Virus record (IMG/VR): IMGVR_UViG_3300020477_000021
Length of the DNA: 64,000 nucleotides
Reading direction: 5' to 3' (one strand)
Source: an uncultured virus (IMG/VR IMGVR_UViG_3300020477_000021)
Lineage: Duplodnaviria > Heunggongvirae > Uroviricota > Caudoviricetes
This document shows, piece by piece, positions 21,972 through 56,466 of this stretch. Each line of letters starts with the position of its first letter. The stretch's first letter is position 1. Made by a program: the position numbers and the translations under genes. Under the pieces are notes generated by a model that worked only from the letters and a program-made list of their open reading frames with translations, was not told the DNA's origin and searched no databases.

Positions 21972-23680
21972 TTGTTTTAAATAAATTAAAATGGAAAAAC
22001 TTTCTTAGTACTGGAGATCAATATAACGAACTGGAGCTAGATGCTAGTCCCATGTCAATCGTTGTTGGTATGAATGGTGCAGGAAAGTCAACTGTAATTG
22101 ATGCCCTTACATACGGATTGTTTGGTAAGTCTTTCAAGAAATTAAATACCAATCAACTCATCAATTCTGTTAATGAAAAAGATATGGTAGTTGAGGTTTT
22201 CTTTACTATAGGAAAACGTAAGTATCATATTAAACGTGGTCTTAAGCCAAGATTATTTGAAATCTATTGTGGTGGTGAATTATTAGACCAAGATGCAGCT
22301 GCAAGAGATTATCAAAAATATCTTGAAACCAATATTCTTAAATTAAATTATAAATCATTTACTCAAATTGTTGTATTGGGAAGTGCATTGTTTGTTCCTT
22401 TCATGCAACTTAGTTCTTCAGATAGAAGAATTATTATTGAAGATATTTTGGACATTCAGGTATTTTCAGTAATGAGAAATCTTGTTAAAGAAAAATTAAC
22501 AGAAACAAATGTTGCTAATGATTCTAATAAACAAGAACGTGGTAATACTGATAGTCAGATTATATTACATGAAAAATATATTAATGACCTTTCTTCTTCA
22601 AAAGAAGCTATCATTGATGAATTAAAAATTGAATTATCTGGTTTAGATATATTGGTTGGTCAAAAACAAAAAGAAATTCAAAAGTGTGAAGATGATATTG
22701 CTGAGTTGCAATTTCAAATGAAGAATGGGGGTTTATATGGTAAGGTTAGAGAATTAGAAAAACTTGATATTCAAATTGAATCAACTTTACAAAAAGCAGT
22801 TTCAGCATATACTTTTTTAAAGAGTACAACAAAATGTCCAACTTGTGAACAAGATATTTCTGCTGATTTCAAGGCCTCGACTTTAAAAAAGAAAGAAGAA
22901 AAAATAGATGAGTATAAATTTGCATTAATAGATTTAGCTAAACAAAAGGATAAAATAGATGTAGATGTAAAATTTAATGAGGATATTGAAACGAAGGTAT
23001 CAAAAATTGAAAATCAAGTTATTCACCTCAAGAGTGAAATAAACCTCCATCAAAGGTCAAAAGAGGACTTATCCTCCAAAATTGAGGATAAATCTTCAAA
23101 AAATCAAAATTTGGAGGAAGAGAGAAACCTGTTGGCTAGTCTTCGTGCAAAACTTGAAGAGCTGGAGCAAAAAAGATTTGACATTAGTGAGAAAATTTGT
23201 TATTATGGGAGAATAAGCAATTTGCTACAAGATGGTGGAGTTAAGACTAAAATTATTAAACAGTATTTGCCCGTGATTAATAACCGAGTAAATCATTATC
23301 TTAAAGAGATGGATTTCTTTGTGAATTTTTACTTGGATGAAAATTTCAACGAAACAATTAAATCAAGATTTAGAGATGTATTTTCATATTCTTCTTTTTC
23401 GGAAGGAGAAAAACAAAGAATTGACATTGCATTATTATTGACATGGAGAGATATTGCAGCCATGAGAAATTCAGTAAATGTTAATCTATTAATAATGGAT
23501 GAAATTTTTGATTCATCATTAGATCAAAATGGGATAGATGATGTATTGAAATTATTTAATAATTTAGATAATACAAACTTATTTGTTGTATCGCATCGGG
23601 GTGATGTGCTAGAAGATAAGTTTCCATCTAAGATTTATGTAGAGAAGAAGCAAAACTTTTCAACCTTTGAGAGGGAATGA
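21968..23680 (+). CDS. gp46: Recombination ATPase gp46 (Rad50/SbcC-like)
   Basis: GMNGAGKST, CPTC zinc hook, FSEGEKQRID, MDEIFDSSLD. Confidence 0.96.
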   Translation: MIVLNKLKWKNFLSTGDQYNELELDASPMSIVVGMNGAGKSTVIDALTYGLFGKSFKKLNTNQLINSVNEKDMVVEVFFTIGKRKYHIKRGLKPRLFEIYCGGELLDQDAAARDYQKYLETNILKLNYKSFTQIVVLGSALFVPFMQLSSSDRRIIIEDILDIQVFSVMRNLVKEKLTETNVANDSNKQERGNTDSQIILHEKYINDLSSSKEAIIDELKIELSGLDILVGQKQKEIQKCEDDIAELQFQMKNGGLYGKVRELEKLDIQIESTLQKAVSAYTFLKSTTKCPTCEQDISADFKASTLKKKEEKIDEYKFALIDLAKQKDKIDVDVKFNEDIETKVSKIENQVIHLKSEINLHQRSKEDLSSKIEDKSSKNQNLEEERNLLASLRAKLEELEQKRFDISEKICYYGRISNLLQDGGVKTKIIKQYLPVINNRVNHYLKEMDFFVNFYLDENFNETIKSRFRDVFSYSSFSEGEKQRIDIALLLTWRDIAAMRNSVNVNLLIMDEIFDSSLDQNGIDDVLKLFNNLDNTNLFVVSHRGDVLEDKFPSKIYVEKKQNFSTFERE

Positions 23681-24348
23681 TTATGAACATTAGTAGTGAG
23701 ACTTTAGATATTTTAAAGAATTTCTCGGAGATTAATAATTCAATTCTTATTAATCCGGGTAACGAATTGAAAACAATGTCACCATTGAAAAATGTATTGG
23801 CAAGAGTTAAGCTGAAAGATAAGTTTCCAAAGCAGTGTGGCATCTATAACTTGAGTGAGTTCATCGGTGTTGTTTCAGCTATGGAATCGCCGAGTTTGGA
23901 TTTCAATGAAGTTGCAGTTAAGCTTAAATCTTCAAAGGGAACATTGAAGTATTTTTATTCTGATCCTTCAACTATTGTATATCCAGAAAAAGATATTGAG
24001 ATGCCAGACGCTGATATTGAGTTTGAAGTAACAGCCGATGATTACGCAAGTATTATGAAGATGGCATTGACATTGAATCTTAGTGACATTATGGTTAAGG
24101 GGTGTTCTAAAAGCAAAAAGATTTATTTGTGTACGTTAGATAGAAAGAGTGATACATCAAATGATTTTTCTGTTGAAGTTGGTGATACAGAGAAAGATTT
24201 TAATTTGTATTTTAAAGCAGAAAACTTTAAGATGGTAAAGGGAGATTATAAAGTTAGAGTAACATCTAAAGGTATTGCTCACTTTACACATGAGTCTGAT
24301 GATTTGGAGTATTGGGTAGCTTTGGAGCCTGATAGTAAATATGAATAA
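23677..24348 (+). CDS. gp45: Sliding clamp gp45
   Basis: TLDILKNFS.IN.SI, GIYNL.EF, C-terminal YWVALE. Confidence 0.93.
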   Translation: MIMNISSETLDILKNFSEINNSILINPGNELKTMSPLKNVLARVKLKDKFPKQCGIYNLSEFIGVVSAMESPSLDFNEVAVKLKSSKGTLKYFYSDPSTIVYPEKDIEMPDADIEFEVTADDYASIMKMALTLNLSDIMVKGCSKSKKIYLCTLDRKSDTSNDFSVEVGDTEKDFNLYFKAENFKMVKGDYKVRVTSKGIAHFTHESDDLEYWVALEPDSKYE

Positions 24349-25186
24349 GTTAAAATATTCAGAGATGTTTTATTCTGTGCAGGGAGAGGGACGGTACGTT
24401 GGAGTACCGTCCGTATTTCTCCGTGTGTTTGGATGTAATTTTGAATGTACTGGTTTTGGTCAATCCAGAGATAAGTCTGAATGGCTTCCAGAGGAAGAAA
24501 TGGCACACGCACAAGAATATCCACACGCAAAAACTTTGGCAGATTTACCAGTTCCAGAGGTTGGGTGTGATAGTTCTTTTTCATGGGCAAGTAAGTTTGG
24601 TGATCTTGCATCTAAAGATGATGCAAATGCTTTAATTGAAAAATTAAATAATCATTTAAAACCTGGGGCTCATCTGGTTATAACTGGAGGAGAACCCTTG
24701 TTAAAGGGATTCCATCCAATGATGTTAGAACTATTGATGAGTCCTGCCTTACATACGAATCATGTTACTTTTGAAACTAATGGAACGCAAGCATTTCCAT
24801 ATTATAGTCATTTTACACATCGGTTTTATTTGTTTAATAGAGAAATTACATGGGCAGTTTCACCAAAACTTTCTATTAGTGGTGAAAAATGGGAAGATGC
24901 AATAGTTCCAAATGCACTTTTATCATATTGCCAATGGCCACATTCTCATTTGTTTTTGAAGTTTGTAATTAGAGATGAAAGAGATATTGAAGAAGTTCAA
25001 GCAGCAGTAGCACTTTATAAAAAGAAATTTGTTACAATAGATGGTATATATTTGATGCCAGAAGGTGGTACAGCTGATGGATTGAGTTTAACTGAAACAA
25101 AAGTTGCAGAGTTATGTATGGAACATGGTTATAACTTTAGTCCACGTTTACAAATACATTTATTTGGTAATAAGTGGGGAACGTAA
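24341..25186 (+). CDS. queE: 7-carboxy-7-deazaguanine synthase QueE (radical SAM)
   Basis: EMFYSVQGEG..VG.PSVFLR.FGCNFEC...GCDS, ITGGEP, FETNGT, SPRLQI.LFG. Confidence 0.92.
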   Translation: MNKLKYSEMFYSVQGEGRYVGVPSVFLRVFGCNFECTGFGQSRDKSEWLPEEEMAHAQEYPHAKTLADLPVPEVGCDSSFSWASKFGDLASKDDANALIEKLNNHLKPGAHLVITGGEPLLKGFHPMMLELLMSPALHTNHVTFETNGTQAFPYYSHFTHRFYLFNREITWAVSPKLSISGEKWEDAIVPNALLSYCQWPHSHLFLKFVIRDERDIEEVQAAVALYKKKFVTIDGIYLMPEGGTADGLSLTETKVAELCMEHGYNFSPRLQIHLFGNKWGT

Positions 25187-25638
25187 TGATAGTATTTCCT
25201 GAACCATTGAAATATAATTATACATATGAACAATATTGGGAAGATATTAAATTACTTAAAGCAAAGTTTGAGAAATTAAAGTCACCTAATATTGTTGGAA
25301 TATATCGAGGTTCGTTGTCTATTGCAGCTCATCTTTCTAATATATTAAATTGTGGAATGAGTATTGTTAGATTTCAAAGTAGAGATGGAAAAGATAAAGA
25401 AGCATCTTTTATTTTGGATAGTTCAACGTCGGATAGTGATATTGTTGTTGTAGATGATATTTATGATAGTGGAAAAACTATACAAGCAGTTCATTCATTG
25501 TATTTTAATCATCCACATAAGTCTATTCAATATTTTACATTATATGGAAAAATGAATACTGATGGTGTTGAATTTTTTCATTATAACAATGAAAGATGGA
25601 TTGTGTTTCCGTGGGAACGTAGTGAAGGAGAAATGTAA
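25186..25638 (+). CDS. Type I phosphoribosyltransferase (Gpt-like)
   Basis: PRPP-binding motif VVVDDIYDSGKT, GIYRG, C-terminal WIVFPWE; TAATG coupling to queE. Confidence 0.85.
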   Translation: MIVFPEPLKYNYTYEQYWEDIKLLKAKFEKLKSPNIVGIYRGSLSIAAHLSNILNCGMSIVRFQSRDGKDKEASFILDSSTSDSDIVVVDDIYDSGKTIQAVHSLYFNHPHKSIQYFTLYGKMNTDGVEFFHYNNERWIVFPWERSEGEM

Positions 25639-25640
25639 AC

Positions 25641-25835
25641 ATGCCACCAAAACAATCTTATTTTAAAATTAGTGGTACACTTAAATATAAAGAAGATAAT
25701 CCTGATGATGATTTTTCTATATTTATGAAGGCCTTGTCTGATAATAATGCAGTAATGTTAGTGCGAGAGCATCTTAGAAATCATGCTCCAGAAGGACAAT
25801 CTATCATTACTAAGATTGAACAAAGGAGAGAGTGA
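25641..25835 (+). CDS. Small hypothetical protein
   Basis: 64-aa ORF in operon order. Confidence 0.6.
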   Translation: MPPKQSYFKISGTLKYKEDNPDDDFSIFMKALSDNNAVMLVREHLRNHAPEGQSIITKIEQRRE

Positions 25836-26290
25836 TGATATATAAAAGTCAAAAGACTTATGGTAATGACCGAGGTTTTAGTTGTGCATTTAGACAACAT
25901 AAAGCTACTCATAGTCATTGTTCGTTGATTCATGGGTATAGTTTGGGTTTTAGTTTTACTTTTGAAGCAACTGAATTAGATGAAAATAATTGGGTGTATG
26001 ATTTTGGTGGTTGCAAGTGGATTAAAGAATACTTGGAAGAAATGTTTGACCATACATTAGTAATTGATTTTCTTGATCCTCATTATGAGTCACTTGTGCA
26101 TTTACAGCATCTTGGTATAGCCAGAGTTGTAAAAGTAAAAGGAATAGGTTGTGAGAAATTTGCCGAGCATGTTTTTAATTATGTTGCTCCTATTGTTAGT
26201 AAAGAAACAGAGGGTAGAGTTCAATTAACTAAAGTTAAAGTTTTTGAACATGGCAGTAATAGCGCAGCTGTGAAAATGGAGAAAGAATAA
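25832..26290 (+). CDS. queD: 6-carboxy-tetrahydropterin synthase QueD
   Basis: HCSLIHGY, DFG, FDH, CEKFA, VFEH..N.A. Confidence 0.9.
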   Translation: MMIYKSQKTYGNDRGFSCAFRQHKATHSHCSLIHGYSLGFSFTFEATELDENNWVYDFGGCKWIKEYLEEMFDHTLVIDFLDPHYESLVHLQHLGIARVVKVKGIGCEKFAEHVFNYVAPIVSKETEGRVQLTKVKVFEHGSNSAAVKMEKE

Positions 26291-26928
26291 TGGCTATAGA
26301 ATTTCCAGATGAAACATTTTTTGCAAATGCTAATATTGGTGATTGTAACCAAGAGGAGATTTTAGAAAATGTTACTACGGCGTTTCAAGGTGTTTTGGAG
26401 GCTCTCCGGATTGACACCGAGAATGACCATAACACACAAGAAACAGCAAAACGAGTTGCAAAAATGTATGTCCAAGAATTATTCAAAGGACGATATACCC
26501 CCAGACCAGATTGCACTTCGTTCCCCAATGCACGATTATATGACCAAATTTATATAACGGGTCCGATTACGGTTAATTCTACTTGTGCTCATCATTTTCA
26601 ACCGATTGATGGTAGATGTTGGGTTGGAATATTTCCAGGTAGAAAAGTAATTGGGTTATCAAAGTTTAACCGTGTGGTTGATTGGGTTGCATCTCGACCT
26701 CAGATTCAAGAAGAATTGACTGAGCAGATAGCAGATGAAATTGAAGATGTAACAGAAGCAAAGGGAGTAGCTGTTGTATTAAAAGCAAAACATTTTTGTA
26801 TGTCAGCACGAGGAGTTAAAGAGCATGCTAGTGAAATGTTGACTTCAGTTGTTCGTGGTGTGTTTAGAGAGCGGATGGCAATTAAGAATGAATTTTTCTC
26901 ATTAATGCAAAATATGAAAGGATATTAA
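26290..26928 (+). CDS. folE: GTP cyclohydrolase I FolE
   Basis: ETAKRVAKMY, STCAHH, GLSKFNR, RPQIQE, HFCMSARGV. Confidence 0.95.
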   Translation: MAIEFPDETFFANANIGDCNQEEILENVTTAFQGVLEALRIDTENDHNTQETAKRVAKMYVQELFKGRYTPRPDCTSFPNARLYDQIYITGPITVNSTCAHHFQPIDGRCWVGIFPGRKVIGLSKFNRVVDWVASRPQIQEELTEQIADEIEDVTEAKGVAVVLKAKHFCMSARGVKEHASEMLTSVVRGVFRERMAIKNEFFSLMQNMKGY

Positions 26929-27111
26929 ATGTGTAGTAGAGGAGGAGGTGGAATGAGTGACCGAGACCCAAATAGACGTAGAAGAAAAATGCAAGATATG
27001 TTGAATAAGCATTATAAAAAACGTGGGTTGATTCCTCCAAAGATAAAACCTAAAATAGATTGGGATAAAGAATTAAGTAAGTTGCCAAGAAGAATTATAG
27101 GAGAAGAATAA
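26929..27111 (+). CDS. Small basic hypothetical protein
   Basis: ORF; second ATG at 26953 follows GGAGG. Confidence 0.55.
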   Translation: MCSRGGGGMSDRDPNRRRRKMQDMLNKHYKKRGLIPPKIKPKIDWDKELSKLPRRIIGEE

Positions 27112-27800
27112 TGAAAAAAGTGATAAGTCTTTCGGGTGGACTTGATAGCACAGTTTTGTGTTATTGGTTAGTCGATAAGTATGGAGCTGAAAATATTTTA
27201 CCTATTACTTTTAATTATGGTCAAAAGAATAGTGTTGAAACTAGTAAAGCAAAACGTACTTGTTGGGACCTGGGACTCACATATAATCTTCAAGATATAA
27301 CTTTTCTTGGTGAAATTTGTAAAGGGGTAAGTTCATTGTCTGCTTCGTCTGATATAGAAGTTCCGGAGGCAGATGATAATAAAACTCCTTCTACATACAT
27401 TCCATATAGAAATATGATAATGATGAGTATTGCATTATCGTTTGCAGAATCTAATGAAGCAGATACAGTTTATATTTCTTCACAGAAAAAAGATATTCAT
27501 TGGGATTCTCAAGAATCTTTTATGACAGCAATTAATAACGTATCTGTTTTAAATACGACAGCTTCAGTAAAAATAGAAGCCCCATTTATTAATTTAACGA
27601 AAGCAGAAGAAATAGAAGAAGGAATTTCATTAGGTGTTCCTTTTGAACATTGTTGGAGTTGTTATGATCCTAAGTTTGTTCAAGTTCCAAGGTCAGCGAT
27701 AGCTTGTGGTTATTGTAGTGCTTGTGTTAAACGAAAAGAGGCATTTGATGAAGTGGGTATTGATGACCCATTACCAACAATAAAGGGGGATTTAAAATGA
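27111..27800 (+). CDS. queC: 7-cyano-7-deazaguanine (preQ0) synthase QueC
   Basis: SLSGGLDS, YGQK, YIPYRN, WSCY, CGYCSAC. Confidence 0.93.
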   Translation: MKKVISLSGGLDSTVLCYWLVDKYGAENILPITFNYGQKNSVETSKAKRTCWDLGLTYNLQDITFLGEICKGVSSLSASSDIEVPEADDNKTPSTYIPYRNMIMMSIALSFAESNEADTVYISSQKKDIHWDSQESFMTAINNVSVLNTTASVKIEAPFINLTKAEEIEEGISLGVPFEHCWSCYDPKFVQVPRSAIACGYCSACVKRKEAFDEVGIDDPLPTIKGDLK

Positions 27801-29164
27801 GTATATTAGAAGTTCCGAATGAAGAAAATGCAATAATGATACCTGCATATAGTGATGGTCTTACAAAGTTATTTTATAATAAAACAGATAAAGACGTTGC
27901 TGGGTATGAATTAGAAGATTTTGGAGAAAAGAAATCTTTACGCATTTTTAATCCAGATGCAAATCCTTATTTTGAAAATCCGTGGATGTTGATTTCAGCT
28001 GGTATCTGTTATGATAAAAAAGATACCAGAAAAAAGATTGGTGCAGAGAAAGCAAAAGTCTTTATTGATAGTGGTGGTTTTCAGTTAGCAATGGGAACAG
28101 TTAATCCAAAGAAATTTGACGATAAGGTTGCACTTGAATGGTCAGAACAAAACGGAGATATATTTCCAATATTGGATAGACCTGTAAGGGGAATAGGGAA
28201 AACATTTAAAAACTATGAGGAGTGTTTAACAAAGACGATAGGTTCTGCAAGATATTATACTGAGAATAGAACTAGAAAAGATGCAGTTGTTTTAAATGTT
28301 TTACAGGGTGGAACATTTGAGGAAATGGAAAAGTGGTATCAATCAGTAAAAGATTTTAAATTTGAAGGATGGGGAATTGGTGGTACAGCTGGTAGTCCTC
28401 AGAAAGTTTTAACTGCGTTATTGGTCCTCATAAATAATAGAGAATTTGAAAATGAAAGAAAGTTGGTGCATATCTTTGGTGTAACATCATCTTCAGCTAT
28501 GGTATTTCTCCGTTGGATGCAAGTTTGTTTAAATAAACAAAAAATCAATGTTCAATTAACTTATGATAGCACCTATTGGAATCGCACTACTGTTTTTGGT
28601 GGATATTTTATGACACCACGGTGGAAAGGTGATCCGGGTATGCAACAAATTAGTGTTACTAATCGACAACTAGTTCCAGATAAAAACGGTGATATTGAAA
28701 TAGACGGAGAAATGTATCGAGGCATTCCTCAAGATTATACAAACATGAGCAAAGAGTTCAAATTGCCGTGTGTATTAGATTGTCCTGTATGTAGTGATTT
28801 GAAAGATACTTATAAGTTTTATAATAACTATAATGAAAAAACAGGATCATTACAAATGCACAAGTTTAACATCGCAATGGCATTTCATAATCTGTATATG
28901 CAAATGGTATGGGATGAGCAAGTAAATAAATTCTTTCATTTTCAAAATGGTAAGCTTGAAGATGTTGGAGCTCTTGAATGTGAGAAAGGAGTACAAAATC
29001 TTGTAAGAGAAGTTGTTGGTGAAAAAGTGTATGCTCAACTAAAAGAAATAGAGGATACGATTAATAATCCAAAGAAATCTTCTAATGTTGCAAAGTTGTA
29101 TCATGGTTTTAAACATAAAGTAGATAAAACAAGTAAAGCACCTAGTTTAATGGAGATTGGTTAA
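27797..29164 (+). CDS. TGT-fold transglycosylase, probable DpdA-like DNA 7-deazaguanine inserting enzyme
   Basis: DSGGFQ, ILD, VLQG, GIGG, HIFGV, YDS and C..DCPVC...H in TGT order; follows queC. Confidence 0.8.
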   Translation: MSILEVPNEENAIMIPAYSDGLTKLFYNKTDKDVAGYELEDFGEKKSLRIFNPDANPYFENPWMLISAGICYDKKDTRKKIGAEKAKVFIDSGGFQLAMGTVNPKKFDDKVALEWSEQNGDIFPILDRPVRGIGKTFKNYEECLTKTIGSARYYTENRTRKDAVVLNVLQGGTFEEMEKWYQSVKDFKFEGWGIGGTAGSPQKVLTALLVLINNREFENERKLVHIFGVTSSSAMVFLRWMQVCLNKQKINVQLTYDSTYWNRTTVFGGYFMTPRWKGDPGMQQISVTNRQLVPDKNGDIEIDGEMYRGIPQDYTNMSKEFKLPCVLDCPVCSDLKDTYKFYNNYNEKTGSLQMHKFNIAMAFHNLYMQMVWDEQVNKFFHFQNGKLEDVGALECEKGVQNLVREVVGEKVYAQLKEIEDTINNPKKSSNVAKLYHGFKHKVDKTSKAPSLMEIG

Positions 29165-29562
29165 TGAGAAATCCTATAAACAAAAGTGGTACAAGTCTTG
29201 AAAAAAGATTAGAAGTTTATCTTATTGAAAATAAGATTCAATATAAAAAACACAAATCTGGAAAACATGAAATAGATTTTATTATTCAACAACCTGATGC
29301 GCCATGGTATGTAGAATGTACGAATCAAAATAGTAGTGGTAGTGTATATGAGAAACTGCCACAGAAGCAACGAAAATATCATAGACTATATGGGTTTAAA
29401 AAGGTTTATAATGTTATTGGTAAGTATAAGATACCTAATGAAGTTATAATTACTATGGATGAAGATGCTAAAACTCATGGATATGAATATACTTTAGATA
29501 CATTTGACGAATTTGTAAGTCGTTTGGATGGGTCATATAATTATAGTCCTTTAGGAATATAA
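29164..29562 (+). CDS. PD-(D/E)xK nuclease-like protein
   Basis: G..LE...E, IDFII, YVECTNQNSSGS..EK resembling restriction-fold nucleases. Confidence 0.6.
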   Translation: MRNPINKSGTSLEKRLEVYLIENKIQYKKHKSGKHEIDFIIQQPDAPWYVECTNQNSSGSVYEKLPQKQRKYHRLYGFKKVYNVIGKYKIPNEVIITMDEDAKTHGYEYTLDTFDEFVSRLDGSYNYSPLGI

Positions 29563-29642
29563 TGAAATTAAACTTTGAAATAAAAGTGGTAAAAAAACTT
29601 GACTTTGAGTGGTATTTTTGTTATAATATATATAATAATTAA
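29562..29642 (+). pseudogene. Possible 5' remnant of a mom-like gene (26 codons)
   Basis: MKLNFEIKVVKK aligns with MKFNYKIKILPK of the 30965 gene, then runs into a promoter and stops. Confidence 0.4.
29599..29627 (+). promoter_or_regulatory. Sigma70-type promoter for the ParB-like/tRNA-Gly/mom unit
   Basis: TTGACT-17-TATAAT with TG extended -10. Confidence 0.8.
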
Positions 29643-29705
29643 TCAATCAGATTAATTATATTTTTAACTTTCAATGTCAGAAAAGTTTGACAGAAAGGAT
29701 TTACA

Positions 29706-30860
29706 ATGCAACCTTTAATAGATGTAAAAAAATCACAACAATCCTGTCCAGTAGAAAGTCTTTTTGGTGGTTCAACCGATCCAAAATACAAAAAAGAGGG
29801 CCCCAATGGTTTGCCATGGACAGGTAACAATTTCGTAATTTGGAAACGTAGGTGTATCAAACCTTTAAAAGAAACGGAATCTCTTGAGAGTGAACAAATC
29901 CGCGACGTTCATCAAGAACCTAAAAATGTTGATGACCTCATTTCTAGCTTTCAAGTAAAAGGCTGGGATTATAAGGAGCCTCCTCTTACCTTTACTAGAC
30001 TTCCTAACACTACGATAGATACTATAAAATCTGGTGAAAACAGAAAAGCAGCTGCTGAACAACTTGGATGGGATTCCTTGATTTTTGATGAAGTTGTGTT
30101 CAAAGATCGTTCCTCTAAAAGAATTGCAGCTGTTCAATTCAATAACACTAATCCATCAGTTAAAAACAATATTGAAACTATGGCAAAGAATCTTCATGCA
30201 GCTGAGCGTGATCACGAGTTGGGTCAAAATCCAACTAATAGTGAAAAGAGAAATTATGTTCGATTATTATATGGAACTGGTGATGAAATAAATACCAATG
30301 TTCCAGAGAGTACAATTACGAAAGTCATAAATCGTGCTAAAAACTTTGGTATTCATGGTGTATTAAATCGCAAATATAATAATCCTGCTTTGAATAAGCT
30401 TTGTGATGAAAATGGTATTTATTATGGTGGAGATAGAGATGCTGAAGGGAGATTTTCGTTTGTCATTAAAGAGGATGGGATGCGTTTATTTTGTAACCAG
30501 TTAATGAAAATGGTAAATGACTCACAAGCTAATATGGTTCTTTCTGATGATGAAAAAGGTAAGAATATCAAATTTGCAATTCATGGGTGTATTGATAAAC
30601 CAGACCAAAATATTTCCAATATGAAAAAGAAACGAGAGGCTTGGTTTAAAATTCTTGATGCAGAAGTGTTGTCTCATTTGGATAATTTTATTTTAAACAT
30701 TACTGGAAAAAAACATGATCCTTTTGATATTAAGATGCGTGGATTCATAGCACAAAATGGTGGTGCAAATTCAAAACAGCAGGTAATTGAACCAGTAGGT
30801 ACACTTGTATTTGAAGAATATATGAAACCTATTTGTGAAAACTTGAATTTGAAGTTTTAA
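29706..30860 (+). CDS. ParB/Srx-like N-terminal domain protein
   Basis: VDDLISSF..KGW....PP...IKSGENRKAAAEQLG pattern of ParB-N domains; AAGGA RBS. Confidence 0.55.
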   Translation: MQPLIDVKKSQQSCPVESLFGGSTDPKYKKEGPNGLPWTGNNFVIWKRRCIKPLKETESLESEQIRDVHQEPKNVDDLISSFQVKGWDYKEPPLTFTRLPNTTIDTIKSGENRKAAAEQLGWDSLIFDEVVFKDRSSKRIAAVQFNNTNPSVKNNIETMAKNLHAAERDHELGQNPTNSEKRNYVRLLYGTGDEINTNVPESTITKVINRAKNFGIHGVLNRKYNNPALNKLCDENGIYYGGDRDAEGRFSFVIKEDGMRLFCNQLMKMVNDSQANMVLSDDEKGKNIKFAIHGCIDKPDQNISNMKKKREAWFKILDAEVLSHLDNFILNITGKKHDPFDIKMRGFIAQNGGANSKQQVIEPVGTLVFEEYMKPICENLNLKF

Positions 30861-30874
30861 TATAACAAATGTTT

Positions 30875-30948
30875 GCGGGCATGGTATAATGATATTACAT
30901 TGGATTACCAATTCAAAGATAGAGGTTTGATTCCTCTTGTCCGCTCCA
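30875..30948 (+). tRNA. Non-canonical tRNA-Gly, anticodon ACC
   Basis: Cloverleaf: acceptor GCGGGCA/TGTCCGC, U73, encoded CCA; anticodon stem TTGGA/TTCAA, loop TT-ACC-AA; T stem AGAGG/CCTCT, loop TTTGATT. Confidence 0.85.
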
Positions 30949-30964
30949 TTTATTTTGGTGAGAT

Positions 30965-31840
30965 ATGAAATTTAATTATAAAATAAAAATTTTACCTAAA
31001 GATATAGCTACAATCTTTGTGCAAAAATATCATTATTCACCTGTGATGCCTTCAGTTACTAAATATTATCTTGGTTATTATCTTGATAAAAAGTTAGTTG
31101 GAGTTTTAACATTAGGTTGGGGTACTCGCCCAAGACACACTTTTAATAAAATGTTTCCAAAAGTAAATATTTTAGAAAAAGAATATAATAAATTTGTTAA
31201 TGATATAAATGATTGGTATTATGAAATTGGGAAAATGTGTTTAACACCAGAATTTAATAATACAAAGGGAGCTGGTAGTCAGATGGTTTCTGCAACAATT
31301 CGTTGGTTAAAAGAAAATACGAATTGTTTATTTCTTTATACAATGGCTGATGGAATTATGGGTAAATGTGGTTATGTTTATCAAGCATCTAATTTTTATT
31401 ATGGAGAAAAATATTGGACACAAGTTTATCTGATGGATAATGGAGAAAAATTACATCCACGTTCTTCCAATACATTGTGTAAAGAAAATGCAAAGTTTTT
31501 AGTAGAAAAGCATGGAAAAGGATATTTAGAGAAGAAATATAGTGCAGATAGAAATGGAGACAGGTATCCTAGATATTTTACAACAGATTTTATGTTAGAA
31601 AGAGGTATAACAAAAATTGATGGGTTAATGTTTCGTTATATATATCCATTAACTAAAAAAGCAAAGAAAATGTTAAAAGATTCTTCTATGAATTGGACAA
31701 GAGAATATCCAAAAGATAAAGATCTTGAATGGAAAGATATAACAGATAAGAAAAATACAAAGATTATTGGTAAGCCTGCATTTACTTATGACTATGCAAA
31801 ATACAATGCAAAATACAAGGTAGCTGTTTTACCTATTTAA
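30965..31840 (+). CDS. Mom-family GNAT-fold DNA adenine modification enzyme
   Basis: FVQKYHYS, LVGV..LG, EIGKMCL, SQMVS..IRWLK, LYTMAD...G..GYVYQASNF: motif series of the phage Mu Mom family. Confidence 0.8.
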   Translation: MKFNYKIKILPKDIATIFVQKYHYSPVMPSVTKYYLGYYLDKKLVGVLTLGWGTRPRHTFNKMFPKVNILEKEYNKFVNDINDWYYEIGKMCLTPEFNNTKGAGSQMVSATIRWLKENTNCLFLYTMADGIMGKCGYVYQASNFYYGEKYWTQVYLMDNGEKLHPRSSNTLCKENAKFLVEKHGKGYLEKKYSADRNGDRYPRYFTTDFMLERGITKIDGLMFRYIYPLTKKAKKMLKDSSMNWTREYPKDKDLEWKDITDKKNTKIIGKPAFTYDYAKYNAKYKVAVLPI

Positions 31841-31858
31841 TTTAATGGAGATAGGATA

Positions 31859-32128
31859 ATGTTTGAAGATTTAAGTTTTTGGTCAAAATTTAAAGATAAA
31901 GAAAAAATTATAAAAATAATTAAAAATAATTTTTATGGATTTTGCAAACTCTCGGCCTCCCTTGGTTTAATTTATGAAGAAAAATCACAACGATTTAGAG
32001 ATATGAGTAATGGACAACTTTTAACGATTGAACAAATAGCAGACTTATTTGTTCTTTTTAATAAAAAAATAGATTCTTTAAAGACACAATATTTTGAGGG
32101 TCCTTATATTGTGACCAGTTTAAATTAG
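31859..32128 (+). CDS. Hypothetical protein
   Basis: ORF with GGAG/AGGA RBS. Confidence 0.6.
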   Translation: MFEDLSFWSKFKDKEKIIKIIKNNFYGFCKLSASLGLIYEEKSQRFRDMSNGQLLTIEQIADLFVLFNKKIDSLKTQYFEGPYIVTSLN

Positions 32129-32485
32129 ATGGAAAAAATTACAAAATATTTACAATCAGGGTTATTAAGTATTATTTTAATGAGTACGGTAATAGCTTTA
32201 GGACTTGAAATAAAAACAATGTGGATAAATCAGGTTGTAGCATTGGCAGATTTATTATTATTGTTTTTATATTTAGAAGTAGTTGCTATGGTACGAGTTT
32301 TTTGGCAAGAACAATCTATTAGTATTCATTTACCTCTTTTGATTGCAATAACTGCTCTTGCACGATTTATTATTCTGCAAGGAAAGGAAATGAATCCTTC
32401 TGCGTTAGTATATGAATCACTATCAATCGTTCTTATTTCTTTTGCAATCATAATTCTTAATTTAAAATTTAAACAAAAAACGTAA
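32129..32485 (+). CDS. psiE: PsiE-like phosphate-starvation-inducible membrane protein
   Basis: Four TM helices; ADLLLLFLYLEV and PLLIAITALAR.II. Confidence 0.75.
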   Translation: MEKITKYLQSGLLSIILMSTVIALGLEIKTMWINQVVALADLLLLFLYLEVVAMVRVFWQEQSISIHLPLLIAITALARFIILQGKEMNPSALVYESLSIVLISFAIIILNLKFKQKT

Positions 32486-32502
32486 GAGAAAGGTTCTCTA
32501 TT

Positions 32503-33471
32503 GTGGAATTAACTTTGATGATGTTGTTAGGTTTTATGTTTTCGGCCTATGCAGTAACCGCAAATGATAGTATTCAAACTTTAGGAACATATATTTCATC
32601 TAACCATGATGTAAAATGGTATTGGCAGTATTTGTTCATGGGTTCAATTTTTGTATCAACTGTTTATTATGGATTTAATGTAGTCGGTGATCCCGCATTT
32701 GGTCGATTGTCCAAATTCGTACATCAAAAAATTCATTGGTATCATGCCCTAGCACCAGCTATTCTTTTATTACTCACTAGATTAAAAATTCCAGTATCAA
32801 CTACCTTTTTAGTTTTATCAGTATTTGCAACAAATTTTATTTTAGAAAAGATGCTCGTAAAGAGTTTTCTTGGTTATGGAGTATCTTTTTTATTTTCAGC
32901 TTTTGCTTGGTATATTATATCAAAGTATTTTCTTGATGAGTCAAAGAAGTTTCCAGATAGTCATAATATGTATTGGAGAATTGGACAATGGGTAACAACG
33001 GGTTGGTTATGGTCAACCTGGTTGAAGCACGATTTAGCAAATATTATGGTATTTCTTCCCCGATATCATCCACCTTCACATGGTATAATATATCAGAGTT
33101 TGGTATATGGAATTATGTTATTAGGTTTGGGATATATGTTTTATGAACGTGGAGGAAGGATTCAAGAGATTGTATTATCGAAAACGAATACACGATATGT
33201 GAGGTCTGCAACTCTTATTGATTTTGTTTATTGTTTTGTATTATATTTCTTTAAAGAGTTGAATGATATTCCGATGTCAACTACTTTTGTTTTTATGGGA
33301 ATGTTGGCCGGAAGAGAAATGGCAATTAATGTAGCACAAGGTCATAGATTAACTTATACGAAAGAACACAGACATGGCGTATTTCCAATGTTATACTTTG
33401 ATTTTTTTCGATTATTATTCGGAATGGCAATTAGTGTAGCACTTGCATATGGAGTTCAGTATTTAAATTAA
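32503..33471 (+). CDS. Multi-pass membrane protein, PiT/PHO4-like phosphate transporter
   Basis: ANDSIQTLG and HDLAN repeats, PVSTT and PMSTT, as in PiT repeat signatures; ~9-10 TM helices. Confidence 0.65.
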   Translation: MELTLMMLLGFMFSAYAVTANDSIQTLGTYISSNHDVKWYWQYLFMGSIFVSTVYYGFNVVGDPAFGRLSKFVHQKIHWYHALAPAILLLLTRLKIPVSTTFLVLSVFATNFILEKMLVKSFLGYGVSFLFSAFAWYIISKYFLDESKKFPDSHNMYWRIGQWVTTGWLWSTWLKHDLANIMVFLPRYHPPSHGIIYQSLVYGIMLLGLGYMFYERGGRIQEIVLSKTNTRYVRSATLIDFVYCFVLYFFKELNDIPMSTTFVFMGMLAGREMAINVAQGHRLTYTKEHRHGVFPMLYFDFFRLLFGMAISVALAYGVQYLN

Positions 33472-33480
33472 AGGAGGATA

Positions 33481-34668
33481 ATGAAAAAGATATTTTTAAC
33501 ATTAGTTTTTATGATGATTGGATTTCCTGCATGGGCATCTAATTTTCATTTTGAATCAGAAGATGGAAAGTTCTCGACAAATTTAGGATGGCGAGCTCAA
33601 TTAAGATTTGCAAATCCTGGTGATGAAGATTTACGAACACCATCTCATTTTAGTGATGATGAAACAAGTAATTTTGAATTGCGTCGTATGCGAATGAAAA
33701 TTGGTGGTCATGGCTACAAGCCATGGATTAAATATTATTTTGAATTAGATTTACAACCATCAAGACGTTCAAATCAAGATGAAACAAATTCAACTGCTAG
33801 ACTTATTGATTGGAGAATTGATATTCAACCGTATGAAGTTTTAGCTTTTCGCGTTGGTCAATGGAAAATTAATTATAATAGAGAACGGGTTGATTCATCT
33901 GGTAAGCAACAATTTGTTGAACGGTCTATTGTTAATCGTGTATTTAATATTGACCGACAAGTTGGTGTACTGATGCAAGGACGTTTAGATAAAGGTGGTG
34001 CATTGGACACACGATATTATTTAGGTGTGTTTAATGGTGAAGGACGTTCTATTGATAATACAAATGAAAATATGATGACAATGGCAAGACTTCAATGGAA
34101 TTTGGAAGGAAAGGAATTGGCATGGAGTCAATCAGATGTTGAACGTCATAAAACACCCCATATGCAAATTGCAGTAGCCTGGGTTGGTAATAAAGGAGAA
34201 TGTACGAGGTGGAGTTCTTCCGGTTGTGGTAGTCTGGATGGACTTACACAAGGAACATCCAATCAATATGCTATTGAACAATTTGTCGAGGAAGTAGCTT
34301 ACAAGTATAATGGAATGTCAGTTCAACATGAATATCATTGGAAAGAAGTAATAGATAATAATACAAACATTACTTATAATTATGATGGTAGTTATTCGCA
34401 GATTGGATATTTTCTTGACCATTTTATCGAGACTGCACCGAAAGAATTAGAAATAGCTTTTCGTTATGCTTTTGTGAATGAACCAGACCCAAGTAATATG
34501 ACTTTAGAAAATAATAGAAAAGAATATACACTTGGAATGAATTGGTTTGTTGCAGGACATAATAATAAAATTACAATGGATTATTCTCATTTAATTTTGA
34601 ATGATGCTTCAGATGCACGTTCTTATAATGATAATAGAGTTCGTTTGCAATGGGATGTTTCATTTTAA
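33481..34668 (+). CDS. Outer-membrane porin, OprO/OprP-like (phosphate-selective)
   Basis: Signal peptide (AWA), FELRRMR, RVGQWK, QFVERS, beta-strand pattern, C-terminal RLQWDVSF. Confidence 0.8.
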   Translation: MKKIFLTLVFMMIGFPAWASNFHFESEDGKFSTNLGWRAQLRFANPGDEDLRTPSHFSDDETSNFELRRMRMKIGGHGYKPWIKYYFELDLQPSRRSNQDETNSTARLIDWRIDIQPYEVLAFRVGQWKINYNRERVDSSGKQQFVERSIVNRVFNIDRQVGVLMQGRLDKGGALDTRYYLGVFNGEGRSIDNTNENMMTMARLQWNLEGKELAWSQSDVERHKTPHMQIAVAWVGNKGECTRWSSSGCGSLDGLTQGTSNQYAIEQFVEEVAYKYNGMSVQHEYHWKEVIDNNTNITYNYDGSYSQIGYFLDHFIETAPKELEIAFRYAFVNEPDPSNMTLENNRKEYTLGMNWFVAGHNNKITMDYSHLILNDASDARSYNDNRVRLQWDVSF

Positions 34669-39237: not shown

Positions 39238-39609
39238 GTGAATCAACAACAATTATTATTTACAAAAGGAAAGGAAATATTAAAGGAGGGTGATGTAAGT
39301 GAAAATGCTTATATCATCCTCGAGGGAGAAGTAGAAGTAAAAAAGAGAATGCCAGATGGAAAGGAAAAACTTTTAGCAACATTAAGTGAAAATGAATTGT
39401 TTGGTGAATGTGGTTTAGTAGATTCACTTCCTAGAACAGCCACTTGTATTGCTAAGACTGATGTTTATGTAGCAACTGTTACGAAAGAGAATTACGCAGA
39501 GTTATTAAAAGATAAACCACAAGCTTTAATTCCAATTTTACGGATTGTTATTGATAGACTGCGTGGAACTATGAAGTTTGTCGAAGATATTTACGGAGCA
39601 ACAAGGTGA
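39238..39609 (+). CDS. Stand-alone cyclic-nucleotide-binding domain protein
   Basis: KG..I.KEGD....AYIILEGEVEV, LFGECGL....PRTAT: Crp-type cNMP fold with no HTH; GGAGG RBS, GTG start. Confidence 0.88.
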   Translation: MNQQQLLFTKGKEILKEGDVSENAYIILEGEVEVKKRMPDGKEKLLATLSENELFGECGLVDSLPRTATCIAKTDVYVATVTKENYAELLKDKPQALIPILRIVIDRLRGTMKFVEDIYGATR

Positions 39610-48384: not shown

Positions 48385-48732
<348 letters not shown>

Positions 48733-48769
48733 GAGGAGATTATGATGTATTTTAATCGAGGAGGTTCTT

Positions 48770-48907
48770 ATGACGAACCTCCGCAACAACATAGAAAGAC
48801 TATTACAAACCAAATCTGGTAGAATAATGTTAAAACTTTATATTGCGTGGAGTATTGTCGCAGACCTTACATTATTAGGAGGATTAGGTTGGTTGATTTT
48901 CTGGTAA
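48770..48907 (+). CDS. 45-aa single-TM micro-protein missing from the ORF track
   Basis: GAGGAGG RBS; MTNLRNNIERLLQTKSGRIMLKLYIAWSIVADLTLLGGLGWLIFW. Confidence 0.55.
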   Translation: MTNLRNNIERLLQTKSGRIMLKLYIAWSIVADLTLLGGLGWLIFW

Positions 48908-56390: not shown

Positions 56391-56466
56391 GCTGGTGTAG
56401 CTCAGTTGGTAGAGCAGGACATTTGTAATGTTCAGGTCGCGGGTTCGACCCCTGCCACCAGCTCCA
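56391..56466 (+). tRNA. tRNA-Thr (TGT)
   Basis: Canonical cloverleaf: GCTGGTG/CACCAGC, D arm AGCTCAGTTGGTAGAGC, anticodon loop TT-TGT-AA, GGTTCGA, encoded CCA. Confidence 0.95.

What the first reader, a model, noticed from the sequence alone, without database searches (positions are those of the whole stretch)
30875..31840. Non-canonical tRNA-Gly(ACC) directly upstream of a Mom-family enzyme: candidate dedicated glycyl donor for DNA adenine hypermodification
Seen: a 74-nt cloverleaf ends 16 nt before the ATG of a Mom-like GNAT gene. It keeps the GlyRS identity elements (G1-C72, C2-G71, G3-C70, U73, C35/C36) and an encoded CCA. It departs from translational tRNAs in three ways: (1) anticodon ACC; (2) D-loop GG becomes GA while T-loop TTC becomes TTT, so the G19:C56 tertiary pair is replaced by a compensatory A19:U56, which argues for selection rather than decay; (3) the T stem has A49-U65 and A51-U63. 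Established: A34 tRNA-Gly is essentially absent from bacteria; T-stem pairs 49-65/50-64/51-63 tune EF-Tu affinity; staphylococcal non-proteinogenic tRNA-Gly species used for peptidoglycan have altered D/T loops and weak EF-Tu binding; Mu Mom makes N6-carbamoylmethyl-adenine. From memory, to be verified: Mom-family enzymes have been reported to use Gly-tRNA(Gly) as donor. Inference: the phage encodes a tRNA that is glycylated but diverted from the ribosome to supply DNA modification. The other tRNA here (Thr-TGT) is fully canonical, so the oddities are specific to this one.
Basis: partly seen in the sequence, partly recalled or inferred. Interest (0 to 1): 0.92.

Follow-up and report, generated by a model that had tools for sequence, protein, structure and literature searches.

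The report
Phage glycine tRNA beside Mom gene
A marine T4-like phage carries a real, slightly unusual glycine tRNA gene right in front of its gene for Mom, an enzyme type known to take glycine from charged glycine tRNA to disguise DNA, and relatives often pair Mom with their own odd glycine tRNAs, so the phage probably helps supply the enzyme's glycine carrier, although this tRNA also looks fit for ordinary protein synthesis.

Summary
ARAGORN and Rfam call a 74-nt tRNA-Gly(ACC) at 30875-30948 (59.5 bits). It ends 16 nt before a 291-aa Pfam Mom-family gene (154.9 bits). Every listed sequence feature is present. Mu Mom's use of Gly-tRNA(Gly) is published (PMC13219725).

The tRNA is a T4-type phage tRNA-Gly (52/74 identical to T4's). 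Its A19:U56 body also occurs in phage tRNA-Gly(UCC) and tRNA-Thr(UGU). The ACC family mostly lies away from mom: only 2 of 7 haplotypes are mom-linked. ACC matches the commonest Gly codon (GGU, 49%).

Three results favour a link:
- The tRNA-mom pair is kept in a relative with 85% Mom identity and different flanks.
- The published T-stem model predicts EF-Tu binding as weak as for staphylococcal non-proteogenic tRNA-Gly (-9.5 kcal/mol).
- A separate reduced-D-arm tRNA-Gly-like family has Mom beside it in 22 of 36 loci, including the window's sister clade.

Best reading (0.42): a general phage tRNA-Gly co-located and co-expressed with mom as donor supply, not a private cofactor. Chance adjacency remains a serious rival (0.30). 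Earlier notes of this scan report the same Mom/tRNA-Gly theme on other DNA.

The parts
29599..29627 (+). Sigma-70-like promoter match (TTGACT, 17 nt, TATAAT) upstream of the 384-aa ORF. It is a candidate start of the transcript that would carry the ORF, the tRNA and mom.
   Evidence: 11 of 12 consensus matches. No terminator-like site was found in 29400..32300. This is a consensus match only; the number of promoter-like sites in the region is not above shuffles.
29706..30860 (+). ORF of 384 aa of unknown function, directly upstream of the tRNA.
   Evidence: It has no Pfam or PHROG family. It is absent from the relative L090, whose tRNA-mom pair has other upstream genes.
30875..30948 (+). tRNA-Gly(ACC), 74 nt, T4-type body, A19:U56, A49-U65/G50-C64/A51-U63, U73, encoded CCA.
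   Evidence: ARAGORN; Rfam 59.5 bits; 52/74 identical to T4 tRNA-Gly(UCC); family covariation.
30949..30964 (+). 16-nt spacer (tttattttggtgagat) between the tRNA's CCA end and the mom start codon. It holds a purine-rich GGTGAG.
   Evidence: Read from the sequence. In relative L090 the spacer is 4 nt.
30965..31840 (+). Mom-family GNAT gene, 291 aa.
   Evidence: Pfam PF25680 at 154.9 bits; PHROG 1384; PDB 8bv8_A at E 2e-5. Mu residues H58, Y59, S124, D149 and Y159 are conserved as H23, Y24, S105, D129 and Y139. R111 is K90 and R151 is I131.

Best explanation
The 74-nt gene is a functional T4-type phage tRNA-Gly whose wobble base has changed from U to A.

Proposed mechanism:
1. It lies on the same strand as the Mom-family gene, 16 nt upstream with no terminator between, so the two are probably made from one transcript and the tRNA is cut out by host RNase P and 3' processing (inferred).
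2. Host GlyRS charges it. All known bacterial tRNA-Gly identity elements are present in the sequence, but charging has not been shown.
3. The Mom-like enzyme takes the glycyl group from Gly-tRNA(Gly) and puts it on adenine N6 in double-stranded phage DNA, where it rearranges to N6-carbamoylmethyl-adenine. This is shown for Mu Mom and inferred here.
4. Placing a tRNA-Gly gene next to mom raises the donor pool when mom is expressed. T-stem pairs predicted to bind EF-Tu weakly would leave more of the charged tRNA free for Mom.

The tRNA is not a private cofactor. It keeps everything needed for decoding and most likely also reads GGU, and perhaps all four GGN codons. It is a general phage tRNA-Gly co-opted beside mom, in a lineage whose sister phages carry a more degenerate tRNA-Gly-like gene at mom's other end.
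For: - Mu Mom uses Gly-tRNA(Gly). All three E. coli isoacceptors work, and Gly-tRNA(Ala) does not (PMC13219725, sections 9, 10, 14).
- In metagenome contig L090, Mom is 84.6% identical, the tRNA differs by 1 nt and ends 4 nt before the mom ATG, and both flanks differ from the window's.
- A separate reduced-D-arm tRNA-Gly-like family was sought by its own sequence (38 loci, 2 spurious). Mom lies directly 5' in 20 of the 36 true loci (19 contigs) and one ORF away in 2 more. The genes downstream of it are diverse. Its fold is 99.3% paired, with 7 compensatory pairs.
- Searching from Mom instead, 14 of 102 loci (13 of 77 distinct proteins) have a tRNA-Gly-like gene within about 80 nt 3' of mom on the same strand.
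- On the Mom tree, window+L090 sit in a 12-row clade in which 7 rows carry that element.
- In L237 such elements flank mom on both sides, one of them 13 nt 5' of mom.
- The T-stem model of PMC3239215 (Table 2) gives -9.5 kcal/mol for the window tRNA. That equals the value for staphylococcal non-proteogenic tRNA-Gly. The bacterial Gly means are -10.8 and -11.0, and T4 tRNA-Gly scores -11.0.
- No terminator-like site lies between the promoter-like site at 29599 and mom.
Against: - The ACC family is mostly not beside mom. Of 32 loci scanned, only L078 (identical to the window) and L090 have Mom; that is 2 of 7 haplotypes. Other members sit in tandem with tRNA-Thr(UGU) or just 3' of DNA polymerase gp43.
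- 88 of 102 Mom loci have no adjacent tRNA-Gly-like gene. This includes the window's near relatives L001 and L135.
- Complete Melnitz-3, which has a Mom homologue, has no tRNA-Gly at all.
- G001 and G002 (Mom 58% identical) carry a canonical tRNA-Gly(GCC) about 22 kb from mom.
- The A19:U56 body is shared with tRNA-Gly(UCC) and tRNA-Thr(UGU).
- The tRNA scores well above Rfam's threshold and keeps U33, U54, U55 and A58.
- ACC pairs with GGU, the commonest Gly codon: 588 of 1190.
- A third tRNA-Gly-like type seen 3' of some mom genes is anchored to the clamp gene gp45. It has Mom beside it in only 4 of 80 loci. This shows that such adjacency can arise from shared hot spots.
- Two residues important in Mu Mom differ here: R111 is K and R151 is I.
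- Charging, expression and DNA modification are all untested.
Confidence: 0.42

Rival explanations
1. This is an ordinary decoding tRNA. The phage carries tRNA-Gly(ACC) to read its abundant GGU codons, or all four GGN codons with an unmodified A34. It lies next to mom only because both are small accessory genes shuffled within the hypervariable island between the clamp (gp45) and clamp-loader (gp44) genes.
For: - Codon use: GGU 49%, GGA 40%, GGC 5%, GGG 6%. The other phage tRNA, Thr(UGU), matches ACA, the top Thr codon at 43%.
- The tRNA is a T4-type tRNA-Gly homologue with a full cloverleaf.
- H07 equals a phage tRNA-Gly(UCC) except for U34 to A.
- The unbiased body scan found only UCC and ACC anticodons for Gly, the two that fit the two abundant codons.
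- The review PMC6103715 (passages) reports that a tRNA-Gly UCC-to-ACC mutant with unmodified A34 no longer discriminates among the glycine codons, and argues that A34 would suit four-fold boxes.
- Five of 7 ACC haplotypes are not beside mom.
- mom and tRNA genes both occupy the same variable slots, for example 3' of gp43.
Against: - Six of 7 ACC haplotypes have A51-U63, giving a predicted EF-Tu affinity 1.3-1.5 kcal/mol weaker than bacterial tRNA-Gly. T4 and the UCC relative L106 keep G51-C63.
- The tRNA-mom pair stays together while both flanks change.
- Mom genes are linked far too often to Gly-type tRNA-like genes for chance. Of 18 tRNA or tRNA-like genes found near 102 Mom genes, 14 are Gly-type; the rest are Tyr (3) and Asn (1).
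Confidence: 0.3
2. One reading: a dedicated, non-ribosomal glycyl donor. The tRNA is charged but kept off EF-Tu and the ribosome, and serves Mom only. This would parallel the staphylococcal non-proteogenic tRNA-Gly species that serve FmhB, FemA and FemB.
For: - A49-U65 and A51-U63 are the pairs of the staphylococcal NP1-3 tRNAs (PMC7826273, discussion passage).
- The predicted value is -9.5 kcal/mol.
- A34 is rare in bacterial tRNAs (PMC6103715).
- The mom-linked reduced-D-arm family shows that phages do keep non-decoding-looking tRNA-Gly genes with Mom. Nine of its 20 haplotypes have UGC in the T loop, as in the staphylococcal NP genes.
Against: - Unlike those RNAs, the window tRNA keeps G18, U54, U55, a normal 7-nt anticodon loop with U33 and a standard D arm, and scores 59.5 bits as a tRNA.
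- Its family features occur in tRNA-Thr and tRNA-Gly(UCC) of the same phages.
- Most family members are not next to mom.
- The anticodon fits codon use.
- AT-rich single-copy tRNAs can look 'weak' in the model without being so. In PMC3239215, 4 of 5 tested single-copy outliers were not true outliers.
Confidence: 0.12
3. The tRNA acts mainly as an RNA-processing or cassette-border element. tRNA(-like) genes at the edges of accessory cassettes in T4-like phages would be cut by RNase P and 3' nucleases, setting the 5' end of the next mRNA (here a 16-nt mom leader). Or they would provide conserved sequence for recombinational exchange of cassettes. Gly identity would then be inherited, not used.
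For: - tRNA-Gly-like elements sit very close to the next start codon. Type 3 lies about 10 nt before gp45 in 53 of 80 loci. Reduced-D elements lie 9-15 nt before various ORFs, including gp62.
- The window tRNA is 16 nt before mom, and 4 nt in L090.
- These elements lie at junctions of the conserved replication genes where accessory genes vary.
Against: - Processing or recombination does not need an anticodon. Yet U33-N34-C35-C36-A37 is kept in 20 of 20 reduced-D haplotypes and 44 of 45 type-3 haplotypes (a loose motif count), together with G1-C72, C2-G71, G3-C70, U73 and CCA. That is the GlyRS identity set.
- It does not explain why Mom in particular is the neighbour in 22 of 36 reduced-D loci.
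Confidence: 0.1
4. The tRNA is a replacement tRNA that escapes a host tRNA-targeting defence (an anticodon nuclease, or a GNAT toxin acting on Gly-tRNA-Gly), with A34 as the escape change.
For: Phage tRNAs with anticodon-loop changes that evade host nucleases are described (PMC10264068; search listing and abstract only). U34-to-A34 switches arose in both the T4-type and the reduced-D families.
Against: Nothing in the window or in relatives points to a Gly-specific defence. This reading does not explain the link to Mom.
Confidence: 0.04

Closest known systems
Bacteriophage Mu Mom with host Gly-tRNA(Gly) (Silva et al., Nat Commun 2026, PMC13219725; PDB 8bv8)
   Same: Same Pfam family (PF25680). 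Five of seven proposed active-site residues are identical. The presumed chemistry is the same: glycyl transfer from Gly-tRNA(Gly) to adenine N6 in dsDNA.
   Different: Mu has no tRNA gene next to mom and relies on host tRNA. Its mom is controlled by Com. Here a phage tRNA-Gly gene precedes mom. R111 is K and R151 is I in this whole clade (17 of 17 sequences). The match to Mu Mom itself is weak (27 bits). Activity and donor are not tested for this clade.
Phage T4 tRNA-Gly(UCC)
   Same: Clear homologue at 52/74 identical. It has the same 74-nt length, the same D arm including the U13.U22 mismatch and 7-nt D loop, U73 and an encoded CCA.
   Different: T4 has U34, G19:C56, and G49-U65/U50-A64/G51-C63 (predicted -11.0 kcal/mol). 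The window tRNA has A34, A19:U56, and A49-U65/G50-C64/A51-U63 (-9.5). T4's gene sits in a tRNA cluster, not beside a Mom gene.
Non-proteogenic tRNA-Gly NP1-3 of Staphylococcus aureus and S. epidermidis, donors for FmhB/FemA/FemB (PMC7826273)
   Same: Both are a tRNA-Gly beside or serving a GNAT-type aminoacyl-tRNA transferase. A49-U65 and A51-U63 are shared, as is the predicted EF-Tu affinity of -9.5.
   Different: The NP tRNAs have TGC or TGT instead of TTC in the T loop, so no pseudouridine 55. The window tRNA keeps U54 and U55 and changes only 19:56. NP tRNAs are measured to bind EF-Tu and ribosomes poorly; here nothing is measured.
Reduced-D-arm tRNA-Gly-like RNAs next to Mom genes in marine phage contigs (family defined here, model R1). 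Earlier notes of this scan describe similar RNAs on other genomes.
   Same: Gly identity set, encoded CCA, A/U at 51-63, the same strand as mom at a distance of 1-58 nt, and occasional U34-to-A34.
   Different: Those RNAs are 70-73 nt with a 3-4 bp D hairpin joined directly to the acceptor stem. Nine of the 20 haplotypes have a UGC T loop. They lie 3' of mom and fail standard tRNA finders. The window tRNA is a standard cloverleaf 5' of mom and scores only 44 bits on their model, against 74-90 bits for members.

Membership tests
tRNA (Rfam RF00005) | Cloverleaf scoring above the curated gathering score. | tested here: met
   59.5 bits against 29. ARAGORN calls it at default settings. The family alignment is 95% paired with 11 compensatory pairs.
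   All are present in the sequence. Actual glycylation cannot be tested with these tools.
T4-type phage tRNA-Gly lineage | Homology to T4 tRNA-Gly: shared D arm, length and acceptor end. | tested here: met
   52/74 identical to T4. The family member H07 is 61/74 identical. See alignments A1 and A5.
Mom family (Pfam PF25680) | Profile match above the curated cut-off. | tested here: met
   154.9 bits against 27.1, E 2.9e-45, covering residues 5-250.
Mom family (Mu Mom as the characterised enzyme) | Residues shown important in Mu: H58, Y59, R111, S124, D149, R151, Y159. | tested here: inconclusive
   H, Y, S, D and Y are conserved. R111 is K; the paper reports drastically reduced activity for R111K in Mu. 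R151 is I; R151A is inactive in Mu. Both changes hold in all 17 clade members aligned.
Mom family (Mu Mom as the characterised enzyme) | Uses Gly-tRNA(Gly) to make N6-carbamoylmethyl-adenine in dsDNA. | not testable with these tools
   Needs enzyme assays or LC-MS of virion DNA.
Non-proteogenic (EF-Tu-avoiding) tRNA-Gly of the staphylococcal kind | Weak-binding T-stem pairs at 49-65 and 51-63. | tested here: met
   A49-U65, G50-C64 and A51-U63 give a predicted -9.5 kcal/mol with Table 2 of PMC3239215. This is a prediction only.
Non-proteogenic (EF-Tu-avoiding) tRNA-Gly of the staphylococcal kind | T loop lacking the UUC triplet (TGC or TGT in the gene, so no pseudouridine 55). | tested here: not met
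   The T loop is UUUGAUU. U54 and U55 are kept and only C56 is changed.
Non-proteogenic (EF-Tu-avoiding) tRNA-Gly of the staphylococcal kind | Measured failure to bind EF-Tu-GTP and ribosomes. | not testable with these tools
   Needs biochemical assays.
   The window tRNA scores 44.4 bits; members score 74.5-90.1. It has a standard D arm. No such element occurs elsewhere in the window.

The most novel reading that the evidence does not exclude
Marine T4-like phages repeatedly equip their Mom-family DNA glycyl-transferases with a phage-encoded tRNA-Gly. The forms range from a nearly standard decoding tRNA (this window) to shrunken, UGC-T-loop, EF-Tu-avoiding forms. The latter converge on the staphylococcal cell-wall tRNAs. 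This would be the first case of a virus encoding the aminoacyl-tRNA co-substrate of its own DNA-hypermodifying enzyme. The window would show an early stage of that recruitment.
Probability: 0.35. Interest if true: 0.85.

Novelty: new variant of a known kind. Interest (0 to 1): 0.6.

Why it matters
Mom's donor was identified only recently, and that work treats Mom as scavenging host tRNA. If phages supply their own tRNA-Gly for Mom, three things follow. tRNA genes in phage genomes gain a function beyond decoding and defence evasion. The staphylococcal split between proteogenic and non-proteogenic tRNA-Gly acquires a viral, DNA-directed counterpart. The pairing also becomes directly testable with purified Mom, GlyRS, EF-Tu and transcripts of the three tRNA types. 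For annotation, many of the mom-linked tRNA-Gly-like genes are missed by standard tRNA finders.

Tried and rejected
- No whole genome is held for the window, so genome-wide tRNA and mom content could not be read.
- blastn of the tRNA against cultured phages gave no match. blastn of 29700-32200 gave only a 57-nt match inside a Psychrobacter phage mom gene.
- No TadA-like deaminase, which could make I34, turned up among the roughly 80 ORFs of the window scanned across.
- The 384-aa ORF upstream of the tRNA and the 416-aa ORF upstream in L090 are unrelated (BLASTP E 1.7). A three-gene module was therefore dropped.
- The DruA-like ORF found 5' of some reduced-D elements shows no profile similarity to Mom (hhalign probability 0.1).
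- Whole-record searches of four small ACC-tRNA contigs for Mom found nothing. The contigs are only 5-13% complete, so this is uninformative; a fifth record was not held.
- The minimum-free-energy fold of the tRNA alone is not a cloverleaf. This is usual for AT-rich tRNAs and was not used.
- Literature: the paper search, word searches of the main text of PMC13219725 and of two of its three supplementary files (one file unreadable) found no mention of phage-encoded tRNA genes next to mom. The bioRxiv version was seen only as a listing and abstract start.
Full report
**1. The observation**

ARAGORN finds two tRNA genes in the 64-kb window: tRNA-Gly(acc) at 30875-30948 and tRNA-Thr(tgt) at 56391-56466, both on the + strand. 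Rfam's tRNA model scores them at 59.5 and 66.3 bits against a gathering score of 29.

- acceptor G1-C72, C2-G71, G3-C70, with U73 and an encoded CCA;
- D loop AAUGAUA (G18, A19);
- anticodon loop UUACCAA;
- T stem A49-U65, G50-C64, A51-U63, G52-C62, G53-C61;
- T loop UUUGAUU (U56).

Sixteen bases later starts a 291-aa ORF (30965-31840). It matches Pfam Mom (PF25680) at 154.9 bits against a cut-off of 27.1. It also matches PHROG 1384 'Mom-like DNA modification protein' and the solved Mu Mom chain 8bv8_A at E 2e-5.

**2. What is known about Mom**

Silva et al. (PMC13219725; abstract and sections 9, 10, 13, 14 read) show four things:
- Mu Mom transfers glycine from Gly-tRNA(Gly) to adenine N6 in dsDNA, followed by rearrangement to the carbamoylmethyl adduct.
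- All three E. coli isoacceptors work.
- Gly-tRNA(Ala) does not work.
- The authors see this as scavenging a host resource.

Word searches of the main text and of two of three supplementary files found no mention of phage tRNA genes beside mom (one supplement was unreadable). Library searches found no other paper on it.

Aligned to Mu Mom, the window protein keeps H58, Y59, S124, D149 and Y159. It has K for R111 and I for R151, as do all 17 clade members aligned. It is a divergent Mom subfamily whose donor and product are inferred.

**3. Setting**

The window is a T4-like myovirus with 32.6% G+C. PHROG matches include portal, major head protein, sheath, the gp45 clamp (23677-24348), the gp44 and gp62 clamp loader, RegA, gp43 polymerase, UvsX, UvsY and gp41.

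The tRNA and mom lie in an accessory island between gp45 and gp44. Just upstream is a 7-deazaguanine pathway: QueE, a phosphoribosyltransferase, QueD, FolE, QueC and a TGT/DpdA-like protein (24341-29164). Then come a PD-(D/E)XK nuclease and an unknown 384-aa ORF. Downstream are phosphate-stress genes (PsiE, a PHO4-like protein, porin O/P).

A sigma-70-like promoter match lies at 29599-29627. No terminator-like site lies between it and mom.

**4. What the tRNA is**

It belongs to a family of phage tRNA-Gly(ACC) genes. Pattern scans of viral and metagenome contigs gave 7 haplotypes that are 58-73 of 74 identical to the window's. The family is homologous to T4 tRNA-Gly(UCC), at 52/74 for the window and 61/74 for haplotype H07. 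The homology includes T4's U13.U22 mismatch and 7-nt D loop.

On an 11-sequence alignment the cloverleaf is 95% paired with 11 compensatory pairs. The 19:56 pair is A-U in 10 sequences and G-C in T4.

The oddities are not specific to it, however. A scan that fixed only the D arm and T loop returned 30 loci. The same body carried Gly(acc) in 10, Gly(tcc) in 7 and Thr(tgt) in 9, and 4 more were uncalled Thr-like copies. H07 equals one of the UCC genes except for U34 to A.

**5. Linkage of this tRNA family to mom**

Of 32 loci holding the family (duplicates between collections included), Mom is present in two:
- L078, which is identical to the window over 29706-33471;
- L090, where Mom is 84.6% identical, the tRNA differs by 1 nt, and the spacer is 4 nt.

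In L090 the upstream genes differ and a QueE-like ORF starts right after mom. The pair has therefore stayed together while both flanks changed.

The other haplotypes lie 6 nt after a tRNA-Thr(UGU) or just 3' of gp43, with no Mom in up to 3-10 kb of held sequence. Those contigs are short fragments, so mom elsewhere in those genomes is not excluded.

**6. Linkage seen from Mom**

*First sample.* This comprised 23 viral loci with Mom 39-66% identical to the window's. No tRNA was found by ARAGORN. Rfam found none on 17 of them, chosen as non-redundant. My later model also found none.

*Cultured phages.* Six records hold a homologue, and I examined three. None has a tRNA-Gly within 5 kb. Complete Melnitz-3 has only Arg, Arg, Leu and Trp tRNAs. 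Two long contigs, G001 and G002, with Mom 58% identical, carry a canonical tRNA-Gly(GCC) about 22 kb away.

*Second sample.* A profile search found 546 relatives, and the best 80 were kept (79 new). It changed the picture. At default settings ARAGORN called a tRNA-Gly(acc) 93 nt after mom in L138, plus Tyr(gta) three times and Asn once. At relaxed settings, by eye, and with a covariance model, tRNA-Gly-like genes appeared just 3' of mom on the same strand in 14 loci.

Overall, 14 of 102 Mom loci have such a neighbour. Counted by distinct protein, that is 13 of 77, with 61 having none and 3 having too little 3' sequence.

**7. Two kinds of mom-adjacent tRNA-Gly-like gene**

*(a) The reduced-D family.* These RNAs are 70-73 nt and run GCGAGUAGUU...CUCGCUCCA. 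A 3-4 bp D hairpin joins straight to the acceptor stem. The anticodon is UCC (ACC in two haplotypes). The T loop is UGC-type in 9 of 20 haplotypes. Some have their own promoter-like sequence. The fold is 99.3% paired with 7 compensatory pairs.

Sought by its own sequence, the family gave 38 loci, of which 2 were spurious:
- Mom lies directly 5' in 20 loci (19 contigs).
- Mom lies one ORF away in 2 loci.
- The remaining 14 follow DruA-like, GmrSD-like or other ORFs, or lack 5' sequence.

Its downstream genes are diverse, so Mom is its one recurrent partner. In L237, copies flank mom on both sides, one of them 13 nt 5' of mom.

*(b) Type 3.* This is a T4-type derivative with D loop AAAAGUA and T loop GGCAGUA. 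Sought by its own sequence, it occurs in at least 120 viral contigs, of which 80 were fetched:
- Mom is 5' in only 4 of the 80.
- 61 have no Mom despite at least 800 nt of 5' sequence.
- 15 have too little room to judge.
- In 53, the clamp gene gp45 starts about 10 nt later.

Type 3 is therefore anchored to gp45. Its contacts with mom look like shared use of a hot spot. Its anticodons vary at position 34 only: UCC 31, ACC 9 and CCC 4 of 45 haplotypes, by a loose motif count.

**8. Mom tree**

The tree holds 93 distinct proteins and includes loci found through the element, so frequencies must not be read from it. Window+L090 form a pair (support 100) inside a 12-row clade with 7 reduced-D carriers, two rows without any tRNA (L001, L135) and one unknown.

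Reduced-D carriers also form a distant clade next to L013-L018, which have none. A very divergent Mom (L230) has the element one ORF away. At least 7 changes between 'tRNA' and 'none' are needed.

The window's lineage thus lacks the element its sisters have at mom's 3' end, and has a T4-type tRNA-Gly at mom's 5' end instead. No reduced-D element exists elsewhere in the window.

**9. EF-Tu prediction**

Values come from Table 2 of Schrader and Uhlenbeck (PMC3239215, passages), computed.

| tRNA | Predicted value (kcal/mol) |
|---|---|
| Window tRNA | -9.5 |
| Other ACC haplotypes | -9.4 to -9.5 |
| L090 | -8.1 (nominal) |
| H07 | unreliable (T stem the authors flag as non-additive) |
| Reduced-D and type-3 RNAs | -9.1 to -9.9 |
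| T4 tRNA-Gly | -11.0 |
| Marine UCC relative L106 | -10.6 |
| Bacterial tRNA-Gly means | -10.8 and -11.0 |
| Staphylococcal non-proteogenic tRNA-Gly | -9.5 |

PMC7826273 (passages) gives A49-U65, U50-A64 and A51-U63 for those staphylococcal tRNAs. It also reports TGC or TGT in place of TTC in their T loops.

The window tRNA shares the T-stem signature but not the T-loop change. The model can mislead: 4 of 5 tested single-copy outliers in that paper were not true outliers.

**10. Decoding**

In 70 ORFs of the window, Gly codons are GGU 588, GGA 472, GGG 72 and GGC 58. Thr ACA, read by the phage's Thr(UGU), is also the top codon of its box. The review PMC6103715 (passages) notes that unmodified A34 is rare. 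It also notes that a tRNA-Gly UCC-to-ACC mutant lost discrimination among the four glycine codons. A decoding role is therefore fully plausible.

**11. Verdict**

The strict idea, a tRNA diverted from the ribosome to serve Mom, is not supported for this tRNA. The looser idea, that the phage places a tRNA-Gly gene with mom to feed it, is supported by the recurrent Mom/tRNA-Gly-like pairing, by the conserved pair in L090, and by the T-stem signature. It is weakened by the family's independence from mom and by hot-spot effects.

I put the co-opted-supply reading at 0.42, chance adjacency of a decoding tRNA at 0.30, a dedicated donor at 0.12, a processing or border role at 0.10 and defence evasion at 0.04.

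Earlier notes of this scan, seen only after my own tests, describe the same theme on other genomes with similarly mixed verdicts.

Noticed in passing
window 24341-29164: A complete 7-deazaguanine pathway sits directly upstream of the tRNA-mom pair: QueE-like, phosphoribosyltransferase, QueD, GTP cyclohydrolase I, QueC, and a 455-aa TGT/DpdA-like protein just under Pfam's cut-off. The phage therefore probably modifies G as well as A. In L090 a QueE-like ORF starts right after mom.
   Followed up: partly
window 29164-29562 and 41810-42562: A small PD-(D/E)XK nuclease follows the DpdA-like gene. An N6/N4 DNA methyltransferase lies between gp44 and gp62. These are further DNA-modification or restriction-type genes in the same replication-module islands.
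   Followed up: no
window 32129-34668: A phosphate-stress gene set lies right after mom: PsiE, a PHO4-like membrane protein (weak match) and a phosphate-selective porin O/P. A porin gene is unusual cargo for a phage.
   Followed up: no
L249-L328 (e.g. L296:1501-1574 with the clamp gene at 1577-2263): A widespread non-canonical T4-type tRNA-Gly (D loop AAAAGUA, T loop GGCAGUA) occurs in at least 120 viral contigs. In 53 of 80 fetched loci it sits about 10 nt before the sliding-clamp gene gp45. Its wobble base varies (U, A or C) while C35 and C36 stay fixed. Its function is unknown.
   Followed up: partly
L212:518-2113, L220:5-1345, L211:2620-3786: Reduced-D tRNA-Gly-like elements that lack Mom beside them instead follow either a GmrSD_N(+HNH) type IV restriction-like ORF or a 389-aa ORF matching Pfam DruA (53.8 bits). 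Both are conflict-related genes.
   Followed up: partly
L178:3829-3914; L190 and L191:4548-4632: A normal tRNA-Tyr(gta) lies about 30 nt 3' of one Mom homologue and about 800 nt 3' of two others. Not every tRNA near mom is therefore Gly.
   Followed up: no
C-termini of Mom homologues (e.g. L001, L003, L015, L018): Many Mom homologues end in ...L(E/D)EFF-type tails, whereas the window's and L090's end differently (…VAVLPI and …GLPV). An earlier scan note reads such tails as clamp-binding motifs. I did not test that.
   Followed up: no
window 39238-39609 and 46894-49206: The accessory regions also hold a cyclic-nucleotide-binding protein, a full-length aldehyde dehydrogenase (549.7 bits) and two ferredoxin-like ORFs.
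   Followed up: no
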